The notes beneath the pieces were generated by a model. The model saw only the letters and a list, made by a program, of their open reading frames with translations, ran no database searches and was not told where the DNA came from. 64,000 nucleotides of DNA from Eledone cirrhosa (Eukaryota). This document shows positions 44,071 through 63,660 of this stretch, piece by piece; the first letter of the stretch is position 1; each line of letters begins with the position of its first letter. Position numbers and translations under genes: made by a program. The stretch is from assembly GCA_964016885.1 (NCBI GenBank), contig OZ024748.1:48670001-48734000 (forward strand), written 5' to 3'.

Positions 44071-46503
<2,433 letters not shown>

Positions 46504-46647
46504 TCCACTGCAAAGTGGTCGTGGAGGTGCCTCACTGTAAATGAGGTTGGTGTTAGGAAGGGCATCCAGCTGTAGAAATCAAGCCAGAATCAGTTCCCGT
46601 CCCACCCTTGCAAGCAGGAAAAAGTGGACGTAAAATGATGATGATGA

Positions 46648-46700
<53 letters not shown>

Positions 46701-47072: not shown

Positions 47073-47108
<36 letters not shown>

Positions 47109-47199
47109 CGAAGGAAATGTGGTAAGGAACCAGGTGGACCATAACGCACCAAAGTACTCAATACTTAGGGTAGTAGAGTGGGTAATAGAAACAAGTAAG

Positions 47200-47294
47200 A
47201 CCCCGACGGCTGAGCTCGAGCCGTTTCGACGGCTAATTCTGTACTGAATGAAAAATTAATTCTGGTATTTAAATAGCCGAACTTATCAAGTGGT
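47200..47294 (-). ncRNA. Mirror copy of the U3-A8 hammerhead
   Basis: Reverse complement of 47469-47563 with one stem I change (ACCAC). Confidence 0.75.
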
Positions 47295-47468
47295 AATTCC
47301 ATATATGGAATTCAGTACAGAATTAGCCGTCGAAACGGCTTGAGCTCAGCCGTCGGGGTCTTACTTGTTCATATATATATATATATATATATGAACAAGT
47401 AAGACCCCGACGGCTGAGCTCAAGCCGTTTCGACGGCTAATTCTGTACTGAATTCCATATATGGAATT

Positions 47469-47563
47469 ACCCCTTGATAAGTTCGGCTATTTAAATACCA
47501 GAATTAATTTTTCATTCAGTACAGAATTAGCCGTCGAAACGGCTCGAGCTCAGCCGTCGGGGT
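47469..47563 (+). ncRNA. Type I hammerhead ribozyme, U3-A8 variant, long stem II
   Basis: ACCCC-UUGAUAA-G..CGGCUA...UAGCCG.C-GAAAC-GGCUCGAGCUCAGCC-GUC-GGGGU. Confidence 0.8.
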
Positions 47564-47601
47564 CTTACTTGTTTCTATTACCCACTCTACTACCCTAAGT
47601 A

Positions 47602-47640
<39 letters not shown>

Positions 47641-48179
47641 CAGTTAACTGAGTAGCTAGTAAATCATGTGTATCCAGTTTAGAAAAAGTACACTGTATCC
47701 CTACATGTTGTAAGAAGCAACTAAAAGAAGGATATCTGGTTATAAATCATTGTCTCAAGAAATCTCATCCAACTGGAAGGGACAATGTAAAAGTTATGAT
47801 GATTATAAAGTGGCCATTTTGGTGCTGCGACAAAACTGCTCAGCCGTGGCACAAGAAAAAGCACCTGATCCACACTAAAAAATGGTTGTTTTGGAGCTAT
47901 GACAAAACACACCCAGTCCACACTGTAAAGTAGTCATGTAGGTATCATGACAAAAAATACCCAGTCCACACTGTAAAGTGGTTGTTTTGGGGCCACAATA
48001 AAAAGCACCAAGTCCATGCTGTAAATGTGGTTGGCGTTAAGGACATCCAGCCATATAAACGAAGCAGTTCTGTATGAGCAAGACATGGTCACCTGATCCG
48101 ACTTGTCTCACAATGGGTGATGGTATCTGTGTGTTATTGTAAAATGCTGAGTTAATTTATTTTAACTATGAAATTACAA

Positions 48180-48750
48180 ATATTCTACACATATTACAAA
48201 TATTCCACAAATATTCCACAAATATTCCACATATATTCCACATATATTCCCCACACATATATTCCACACATATTCCACCCAAATATTCCACATATATTCC
48301 ACCCACATATATTCCACACATATATATTCTACCCACATAATCCACTTATGTTCCACCCACATATTCCACCCAAATATTCCACATATATATTCCACATATA
48401 TTCCACCCATATATTCCATACATATTCCACCCATATATTCCACATATATTCCACCCATATATTCTACCCATATATTCCACACACATTCCACCTATATATT
48501 CCACATATATTCCAGCCACATATATTCCACACATATATTCCACACATATATTCCACATATATTCCACATATATTCCACATATTCCACATATATTCCACAT
48601 ATTCCACCCACATATTCCATACATATTCCACCCATATATTCCACCCATATATTCCACATATATTCCACCCATATATTCTACCCATATATTCCACACACAT
48701 TCCACATATATTCCACACATATATTCCACACATATTCCACTCATATTCCA
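48180..48750. repeat. atattccac-based minisatellite
   Basis: Seen directly. Confidence 0.93.
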
Positions 48751-62078: not shown

Positions 62079-62269
62079 AATTAAAATACTAGAGTGTGTT
62101 GGAGTTAAACACCCTCTTCATATTATAGAAATGGCTCAATGTAATTAAACAGAGATATAGTTCAATGTAATTAATAGCTCAATGTAATTATAGCTCAATG
62201 TAATTAAACAGAGCCAAAGAATTATAAAAAATAAACCAAAGAAGCCTTCAATACATCAAAAGTCATTAT

Positions 62270-62311
62270 TTGCCAACAATGTTTCGTCCTATTAAATACT
62301 CATCAGGGCAA
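62270..62311 (-). ncRNA. Mirror copy of the minimal hammerhead
   Basis: UUGCC-CUGAUGA-GUAUU-UAAU-AGGAC-GAAAC-AUU-GUU-GGCAA. 5-bp stem I, weakened stem II. Confidence 0.75.
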
Positions 62312-62462
62312 GTAAAGCTACAAGAAGCACTATCGGCCAATACAAGCCAAAAACTCAGAAGAATATAGAGTATACATCTATTAAAGCTTAGGAAAGATGT
62401 ATACTCCATATTCTTCTGAGTTTTTGGCTTGTATTGGCCGATAGTGGTTCTTGTAGCTTTAC

Positions 62463-62504
62463 TTGCCCTGATGAGTCCTTAATAGGACGAAACATTGTTG
62501 GCTA
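62463..62504 (+). ncRNA. Minimal type I hammerhead ribozyme
   Basis: UUGCC-CUGAUGA-GUCCU-UAAU-AGGAC-GAAAC-AUU-GUU-GGCUA, then AATAAA. Confidence 0.85.
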
Positions 62505-62546
62505 ATAAAGACTTTTGATGTATTGAAAGCTTCTTTGGTTTATTTT

Positions 62547-62720: not shown

Positions 62721-63235
<515 letters not shown>

Positions 63236-63468
63236 CACCCTTGCAAGCAGGGAAAAGTGGACGTAAAATGATGATGATGTATGTCTATATGTATACATAT
63301 GATTGACAACCATGCTAGCCTGGAAGATAGGCGCTAAACGATGATGATGATGATGATATTGTAGGTGAATGTACCTTTTATGTGTTGTACTGCTGAGGTT
63401 GATCTGGTGCTTGTAAGATCAAATACTACCATTTCTCTAGTATTATTATTTACTTTGGTACGGAAAAG

Positions 63469-63660
63469 GGAGGTGAATTGGCAGTATCGGTAGAGCGTTG
63501 GACGCCGTGCTTTCCAGCATAGTTACGTCCCTTTACGATCTGAGTTCAAATCCCGCCGAGGTTGACTTTGCCTTTCATCCTTACGGGGTCGATAAAATAA
63601 AGTACCAGGAATGCACTAGGTAATTGCTGGCCTTGTGCCTAAAGTAGAAACAATTATTAT
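63469..63660 (+). mobile_element. SINE family B
   Basis: Close match to 38648-38826. Confidence 0.85.

What the first reader, a model, noticed from the sequence alone, without database searches (positions are those of the whole stretch)
47106..47603. Palindrome of palindromes: four ribozyme 3' halves and two complete U3-A8 ribozymes
A 444-bp near-perfect palindrome centred on (AT)n. Each arm has an internal inversion duplicating the stem II-GAAAC-stem III-GUC-stem I half. Either strand yields one full ribozyme plus an extra substrate-like half, allowing alternative or dimer-like folds (inference). The arms are almost identical and CpG-rich, so it is young. A relative at 62991 shows the family is mobile.
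Basis: partly seen in the sequence, partly recalled or inferred. Interest (0 to 1): 0.75.

Follow-up and report, generated by a model that had tools for sequence, protein, structure and literature searches.

The report
Mirror-copied Penelope retrotransposon stub
This 444-base mirror sequence is a short dead stub of a very common jumping gene, inserted in that family's usual head-to-head form and later likely copied back onto itself at a TA repeat; its self-cutting RNA motif is a known variant and is predicted not to fold here, so the locus is mostly ordinary.

Summary
The 444-bp palindrome is real in the assembly (47160-47603, one mismatch). It is the pseudo-LTR end of a young Hydra-type Penelope-like retrotransposon (PLE); 35 nt of it match exactly 19,405 times in this genome. 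The left half (47108-47370) is the family's standard insertion: a tailed and a tail-less arm joined head to head in (TA)n (64 of 73 sampled units). 'Ribozyme 3' halves' are the norm (82 of 101 arms). The right half is a local mirror copy: it repeats the left half's junction and two substitutions found together nowhere else in the genome. Likely cause: DNA fold-back at the self-complementary (AT)11. Such mirrors are rare (0 of 75 sampled loci; one other example). The U3-A8 hammerhead is family-wide, shows stem II covariation and is already known from PLEs; in this palindrome its helices have zero predicted probability, so alternative or dimer folds are unsupported. Reads did not confirm or refute the locus. 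Side result: 13 of 50 very short insertions end exactly at the predicted cut with untemplated bases, a likely trace of cleavage in vivo. The scan noted two-start insertions, mirrored Hydra PLEs and turns near cut sites before, on other DNA.

The parts
47074..47107 (.). (TA)17 target microsatellite, left
   Evidence: sequence
47108..47308 (-). Left outer arm: PLE pLTR end, element positions 0 to -200, with the 80-nt 'tail' (47108-47188); three differences from family copy L002 (-81 C>T, -110 T>C, -183 C>A)
47200..47294 (-). Type I hammerhead motif, U3-A8 core at 47289, C17 at 47205; stem I broken by the private C>A at 47291
47295..47312 (.). Head-to-head junction of the first insertion at an 18-nt local palindrome (positions -200 / -141); repeated identically at 47451-47468
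   Evidence: (D7)
47310..47370 (+). Left inner arm: tail-less arm, positions -141 to -81 (ribozyme 3' half, C17 at 47354); identical to family copy L002
47371..47392 (.). (AT)11, centre of the mirror; likely fold-back primer
47393..47453 (-). Right inner arm: mirror copy of 47310-47370 (C17 at 47409)
47455..47603 (+). Right outer arm: mirror copy of the left outer arm, positions -200 to -52; shares -81 C>T and -110 T>C; stops at an AT-rich site that is not a family start point
47469..47563 (+). Intact type I hammerhead motif: 5-bp stem I, UUGAUAA core at 47474, stem II with long loop, GAAA, 5-bp stem III with a loop holding a palindrome, GUC with C17 at 47558
47604..47638 (.). Junction bases and (AT)n, right
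62993..63185 (.). Older relative: ordinary tail + tail-less head-to-head unit turning in loop II, no 5' core

Best explanation
The locus is a 5'-truncated head-to-head insertion of a Hydra-type Penelope-like retrotransposon in a TA repeat (47108-47370), and 211 bp of it were likely duplicated later, in mirror orientation, by DNA fold-back synthesis primed at the self-complementary (AT)11. Step 1 (structure shown, mechanism inferred): the element's enzyme cuts (TA)n and primes two cDNAs from two fixed RNA start points (0 and about -80), which join at a short palindrome. Step 2 (copy relation shown, mechanism inferred): a 3' end in the (AT)n beside the tail-less arm snaps back, copies the insertion backwards through its junction to position -52, and rejoins the right flank at AT-rich microhomology. 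The hammerhead is the family's normal pLTR ribozyme carried along as a passenger; any transcript through the locus is predicted to form a 220-bp double-stranded stem that buries it.
For: Family: 40 full-length matches at 97-100% among 40 scored of 2268 candidates; 19,405 exact 35-mers, 0 in the reversed control; tandem array with a 3531-bp period and a 784-codon open frame with RT then GIY-YIG-type nuclease. Standard unit: in 75 loci taken in genome order, 3' ends lie at 0 to -2 (47 of 101 arms) or -74 to -78 by BLAST (52 of 101), 5' ends at -130 to -143 (74 of 101); 64 of 73 head-to-head units pair a tailed with a tail-less arm, none pairs two tails; 37 different junction strings among 43 parsed. 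Local copy: identical -200/-141 junction in both halves; the two outer-arm substitutions occur together only at the two arms of this locus; end -52 seen in 0 of 101 arms. Younger than the insertion: 1 mismatch in 222 bp between the halves, against 2 in 61 bp between the two arms of the first insertion, which is ordinary for the family (median 1 in 47 nt over 55 units). Second case: L037, a 96-nt mirror at (AT)17 that crosses its own junction and shares two private variants. Literature: inverted 5'-truncated copies and one-sided tails (PMC8557442), two RT starts and both-strand extension in vitro (PMC11167929), fold-back inverted duplications at breaks in yeast (PMC11724301, abstract only).
Against: No read bridged the locus, so an assembly or library fold-back is not excluded. 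The timing rests on three substitutions. Convergent tail-less ends in one (AT)n also arise from independent insertions (2 of 75 loci, L059 and L105), so the outline alone does not prove copying. Which polymerase and which nick made the mirror is not shown. Only one other element mirror was found among 231 loci scanned, many of them overlapping.
Confidence: 0.72

Rival explanations
1. The mirror copy was made by the PLE machinery itself, either while the first insertion was being completed or after its nuclease re-cut the adjacent (TA)n, with the reverse transcriptase extending the snapped-back end on DNA.
For: The fold-back centre is the family's own target sequence; nearby re-insertion into the same (TA)n is common (10 of 75 loci have convergent neighbours); both mirrors found start at the tail-less end (window, L037).
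Against: Copying during integration needs two RT errors in 200 nt or a source copy that is absent from the assembly; -52 is not a family start point. Host repair at (AT)n needs no element enzyme. This rival differs from the best explanation only in the enzyme and timing.
Confidence: 0.12
2. The right half is a library or assembly artefact (polymerase fold-back at the (AT)n).
For: Near-perfect palindrome centred on a self-priming repeat; no bridging record in four runs of one study.
Against: Flanks are unique and not mirrored; the copy is short and ends at internal microhomology; the halves differ by one base; an older, diverged locus (L037) shows the same design.
Confidence: 0.09
3. Two independent insertions landed in one (AT)n and were then made alike by conversion between arms.
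For: Independent convergent insertions occur (L059, L105, L043).
Against: Those cases differ in junction and subfamily (83-98% to the reference arm); here junction and private variants are identical over 211 bp.
Confidence: 0.04
4. One reading: a functional arrangement in which a full ribozyme and an extra substrate-like half switch folds or act as a dimer.
For: The isolated plus-strand motif folds as a hammerhead; loop III holds a palindrome compatible with published dimer models (PMC4209133).
Against: Helix probabilities 0.0 whenever an antisense arm is included (4 of 4 contexts); the structure is single-copy and one ribozyme copy is already mutated in stem I; no sign of selection.
Confidence: 0.03

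Closest known systems
Hydra-clade Penelope-like elements (Craig et al. 2021, PMC8557442; read: passages, section 11, supplement files S1 Hydra sheet and S2)
   Same: C-terminal nuclease, RW-basic motif, DKT, CxCx5C linker, CxxC and CxH, (TA)n targets, pLTR hammerhead, inverted 5'-truncated copy, tail at one end only. A cephalopod member (Hydra-1_Obim) is listed there.
   Different: Unit is 3.5 kb (listed families 1.1-3.0 kb); RWR instead of RWK; tail about 80 nt instead of 30-40; every Hydra hammerhead in the S2 rows I read starts with C3 and has a short stem III, whereas this family has U3-A8, a 5-bp stem III with a 9-nt loop and a loop II of about 35 nt. A secondary mirror duplication is not in the passages read.
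U3-A8 minimal hammerheads of Schistosoma mansoni PLEs (Cervera and de la Pena 2014, PMC4209133; read: parts 1-2 of 4)
   Same: U3-A8 covariant core in a pLTR (about 1,300 hits there), G10.1-C11.1, motifs on opposite strands 100-700 bp apart.
   Different: Those are minimal motifs thought to need dimers; this one has a full stem III and is predicted to fold as a monomer when isolated.
PAc (Poseidon of Anolis) target-primed reverse transcription (Frangieh et al. 2024, PMC11167929; read: parts 1-2 of 4)
   Same: AT-rich targets, both strands extended, two internal start points that define the tail, start points at the pLTR/ORF boundary, ribozyme cleavage not needed for most insertions.
   Different: Different clade; that study found no RNA reads ending at the cut, whereas here a small class of genomic copies ends exactly there.
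Fold-back inverted duplications at DNA breaks (Yu et al. 2024, PMC11724301; read: abstract only)
   Same: Microhomology-primed self-copying at a break, captured by end joining.
   Different: Yeast events are mostly 5-34 bp; here 211 bp, primed at (AT)n; enzymes untested.

Membership tests
Penelope-like element (EN+) | Single ORF with RT and C-terminal GIY-YIG nuclease | tested here: met
   784-codon open frame with YRDD (415) and YIG (673); no Pfam hit at E<=1; nearest Atlas clusters score 0.96-0.99 and carry HTH_animal, GIY-YIG or RVT_1 on part of their members
Penelope-like element (EN+) | Tandem or partial-tandem copies forming pLTRs; inverted 5'-truncated copies | tested here: met
   3531-bp tandem array; 73 head-to-head units in 75 loci
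Penelope-like element (EN+) | [quoted passage not shown] | tested here: met
   64 of 73 units tail + tail-less, 0 tail + tail; tail about 80 nt, longer than the published 30-40
Hydra clade | DKG changed to DKT; RWK motif; no GxKF/Y | tested here: met
   DKT at 184, RWR at 104 (K>R variant), no GxK[FY] match
Hydra clade | CxCx5C linker; CxxC and CxH near the nuclease end | tested here: met
   Residues 639, 737, 765
Hydra clade | Insertion into (TA)n | tested here: met
   3' ends run into (TA)n in the printed loci
Hydra clade | Placement in the Hydra clade of an RT tree | not tested
Hydra clade | Canonical (C3-G8) hammerhead | tested here: not met
   Core is U3-A8 in the young subfamilies and C3.A8 in 16 of 23 parsed copies of one older subfamily; so a variant on this feature
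Type I hammerhead ribozyme | Three stems around core NUGANNA / GAAA / UH with a 3-8 pair | tested here: met
   no Rfam match even at E<=10
Type I hammerhead ribozyme | Covariation in stems | tested here: inconclusive
   20 hand-picked copies: 94.8% of cells paired, 3 stem II pairs with changes on both sides, none in stems I and III; changes are few events between related subfamilies; RNAalifold gave a different consensus for stem III
Type I hammerhead ribozyme | Self-cleavage after C17 | not testable with these tools
   Indirect only: copies ending exactly at the first base after C17
Non-LTR retrozyme | Non-coding tandem monomers of a few hundred bases, each with a hammerhead | tested here: not met
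   The sequence is the pLTR of a 3.5-kb coding element; no monomer array at this locus

The most novel reading that the evidence does not exclude
The genome records two unreported activities of this PLE: its U3-A8 ribozyme cuts a small share of template RNAs in vivo, so that reverse transcriptase runs off at the cut and adds untemplated bases (13 of 50 very short insertions end exactly there on both arms), and the element's own nuclease and polymerase re-cut the neighbouring (TA)n and build nested DNA palindromes such as this one. The cleavage trace alone I put at about 0.6; both together lower.
Probability: 0.2. Interest if true: 0.6.

Novelty: new member of a known kind. Interest (0 to 1): 0.3.

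Why it matters
The locus itself is a dead passenger and has little consequence beyond being a possible source of long double-stranded RNA or a fragile hairpin. Its value is as an entry to a large natural record of PLE integration: strict pairing of the two start points, joining at short palindromes, and a class of copies that stop at the ribozyme cut. Whether PLE hammerheads cleave in vivo is open in the papers read (PMC8557442 calls their function unclear; PMC11167929 found no reads at the cut), and these copies make it testable from DNA.

Tried and rejected
Rfam: only microRNA models matched the hairpin, all under their gathering scores among the 150 rows shown of 313; nothing on 47455-47600. 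Pfam: no family for four ORF pieces. Sequencing runs: no RNA holder listed; three best DNA holders are one sample and may be the assembly's source; contigs laid on 47455-47900 did not bridge the (AT)n, which the tool skips; the read check of the inner junction was not obtained, so artefact status stays open. Rejected: amplification of one short hairpin as a MITE-like unit (37 distinct junctions among 43); retrozyme array; third RT start at -52 (0 of 101 arms); the nested palindrome as a mobile unit. The comparison of positions -97 and -98 (112 and 84 matches) was not a clean control, because both sets were filled by the same short joined copies; I relied instead. Mirror scan hits in L095, L159 and L201 were simple repeats and were dropped. 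Literature searches listed no paper on nested PLE palindromes or on genomic ends at a PLE ribozyme cut; I saw only listings for most of them, and subscription papers (recalled: a 2017 RNA Biology paper on PLE hammerhead variants) were not available. Host-gene context and transcription of the locus were not examined. I did not determine the species.

Full report
Observation. The palindrome is as described: 47160-47603, 444 bp, one mismatch (47291 A against 47472 C), centred on (AT)11, with a 65-nt inverted repeat inside each arm. There are four ribozyme 3' halves and two U3-A8 cores. The plus-strand motif (47469-47563) is a complete type I hammerhead; the minus-strand one has the private C>A in stem I. 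Rfam has no matching model.

What the sequence is. The left outer arm matches a young, abundant repeat: 40 full-length places at 97-100% among the 40 scored of 2268 candidates, and 19,405 exact matches to a 35-nt piece, with 0 for the reversed control. Copies share about 1 kb upstream and often abut pieces of an RT-nuclease frame. A tandem array on contig C1 has a 3531-bp period and a 784-codon open frame that begins in the repeat's last 110 bases. The protein has YRDD, a C-terminal YIG, RWR, DKT, CxCx5C, CxxC and CxH and lacks GxKF/Y, the features that Craig et al. give for the Hydra clade of Penelope-like elements (PMC8557442 section 11). Pfam found nothing; the Atlas neighbours carry RT, GIY-YIG and HTH_animal families on part of their members. 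No tree was built, so the clade rests on motifs. Below, position 0 is the last base of the element's end (window 47108); the core starts at -181 and C17 is -97.

The left half is the family's standard insertion. I sampled 75 loci covering the first 100 listed matches on C1, in genome order (three duplicate loci dropped). Of 101 arms holding the 35-mer, 47 end at 0 to -2 and 52 at -74 to -78 (BLAST runs about 3 bases into the TA repeat, so the true end is about -80); 74 begin at -130 to -143, and only 19 reach the 5' core, so 82 are '3' halves'. Of 73 head-to-head units, 64 pair a tailed with a tail-less arm, 7 a tail with another end, 1 tail-less with another end, 1 two tail-less arms and none two tails. 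Junction strings differ (37 among 43 parsed), which argues for independent events; both arms share subfamily variants in 42 of 55 units. The hot spot overlaps a 14-nt near-palindrome in loop II, where two cDNA ends could anneal (inference). The window's unit joins -200 to -141 at an 18-nt local palindrome; L035 and L006 also turn near such sites. This agrees with the one-sided tail and inverted copies in PMC8557442 and with two RT starts and both-strand extension in PMC11167929. The relative at 62993-63185 is one more such unit.

The right half is a local copy. It repeats the junction exactly and carries the outer arm's two substitutions (-110 T>C, -81 C>T), which the inner arms lack. A 33-nt pattern with both matches only the two outer arms in 3.0 Gb. 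The copy stops at -52, an end seen in 0 of 101 arms, in AT-rich sequence that runs into the right (TA)n. The halves differ at 1 of 222 bp, while the two arms of the first insertion differ at 2 of 61 bp, ordinary for the family (0-7 per 47 nt, median 1, 55 units). So the copy is likely younger than the insertion, on small numbers. The simplest route is fold-back of a 3' end in (AT)n, copying through the junction, and rejoining by microhomology (inference; comparable events in yeast, PMC11724301, abstract only). A scan of 231 stored loci, many overlapping, found one other element mirror: L037, 96 nt, centred on (AT)17, crossing its own junction and sharing two private variants; none in the 75-locus sample. 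A similar outline arises from independent insertions in 2 of 75 loci, but with different junctions and sequence.

The ribozyme. The core is family-wide: UUGAUAA or UUGAGAA in the young subfamilies, UUGAUAA in 15 of 16 parsed copies of a distant subfamily whose loop II is largely different (9 of 25 not parsed), and CUGAGAA, a C3.A8 mismatch, in 16 of 23 parsed copies of a third (2 of 25 not parsed). In 20 hand-picked copies 94.8% of cells pair and three stem II pairs change on both sides; stems I and III give no such change, and RNAalifold preferred another fold for the stem III region. U3-A8 cores and opposite-strand pairs are already described in PLE pLTRs (PMC4209133); the Hydra hammerheads listed in supplement S2 of PMC8557442 all start with C3. 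Isolated, the plus motif forms its helices with probability 0.82-0.99; with any antisense arm included the probabilities are 0.0 and the RNA is one long hairpin of -427 kcal/mol. The proposed alternative or dimer folds are therefore unsupported.

Side result on cleavage. All 35-mer arms cross the cut by construction, so most templates were uncut, as in PMC11167929. But 101 loci have both arms joined within a few bases of the cut. Among the first 50, tallied by eye from the listing: 13 have both arms ending at -96, the first base of the 3' product, with 1-3 untemplated bases (mostly A or T) between; 13 are exact -96/-96 joins and 4 decayed forms of them, which a 2-base CG microhomology would also explain; 12 fit CG microhomology at -100; 6 have one arm at -96 and the other shorter; 2 are other. 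Stored examples have the usual tail + tail-less layout. This fits RT run-off at a ribozyme-cut end in roughly 1% or less of insertions; pausing at the foot of stem III is the rival. The mobile C3.A8 subfamily suggests cleavage is not needed for spreading.

Artefact check. The best DNA holders are one sample and may be the assembly's source; no RNA holder was listed. Contigs did not bridge the (AT)n. The locus is unconfirmed by reads; unique unmirrored flanks, the internal end point, the one mismatch and L037 argue that it is real.

Earlier notes of this scan (unchecked AI notes, read after my own analysis) report two-start head-to-head insertions, a mirrored Hydra PLE and turns near a cut site at other loci, and a U3-A8 PLE stub in another genome. 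They are not used as support.

Verdict. A known kind of insertion by a new member of a known PLE clade, plus a rare local mirror duplication. Interest 0.3.

Noticed in passing
G000, 101 loci; examples L238, L240, L241, L243, L254, L260: Very short head-to-head insertions whose arms end at the first base after the predicted ribozyme cut, often with untemplated A/T: likely trace of cleavage in vivo.
   Followed up: partly
L212-L236; also L051, L108, L129, L136: An amplified subfamily has a C3.A8 mismatched core (16 of 23 parsed), while relatives have U3-A8; suggests that an intact 3-8 pair is not needed for mobility.
   Followed up: partly
window 62265-62530: Another head-to-head palindrome, from a different family, with canonical CUGAUGA hammerhead cores at about 62310 (-) and 62468 (+), ending in (TA)n.
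   Followed up: no
window 4818-4866 (+) and about 16213-16170 (-): Two further type I hammerhead-like motifs of other families; the second also has a UUGAUAA core.
   Followed up: no
L184:1236-1457: The open frame starts inside the ribozyme's stem III region and its first Met is codon 68, about 90 nt past element position 0; the tail is the start of the frame, as in PAc. True start or splicing unknown.
   Followed up: no
L079 and L131: Short family arms repeated three times in tandem at 207-257 bp spacing.
   Followed up: no
L012, L018, L003: Pieces of other RT or GIY-YIG frames from different PLE-like families lie within 1.5 kb of family copies.
   Followed up: no
window 46348-46650, 63223-63280 and 63470-63660: tRNA-like SINE-type repeats and a shared 45-nt block ending in (GAT)n near both family copies; label is from recall, not from a call.
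   Followed up: no
window 47856-48025 and 48190-48750: A 48-bp three-copy tandem repeat and a degenerate ATATTCCAC-like minisatellite to the right of the finding.
   Followed up: no
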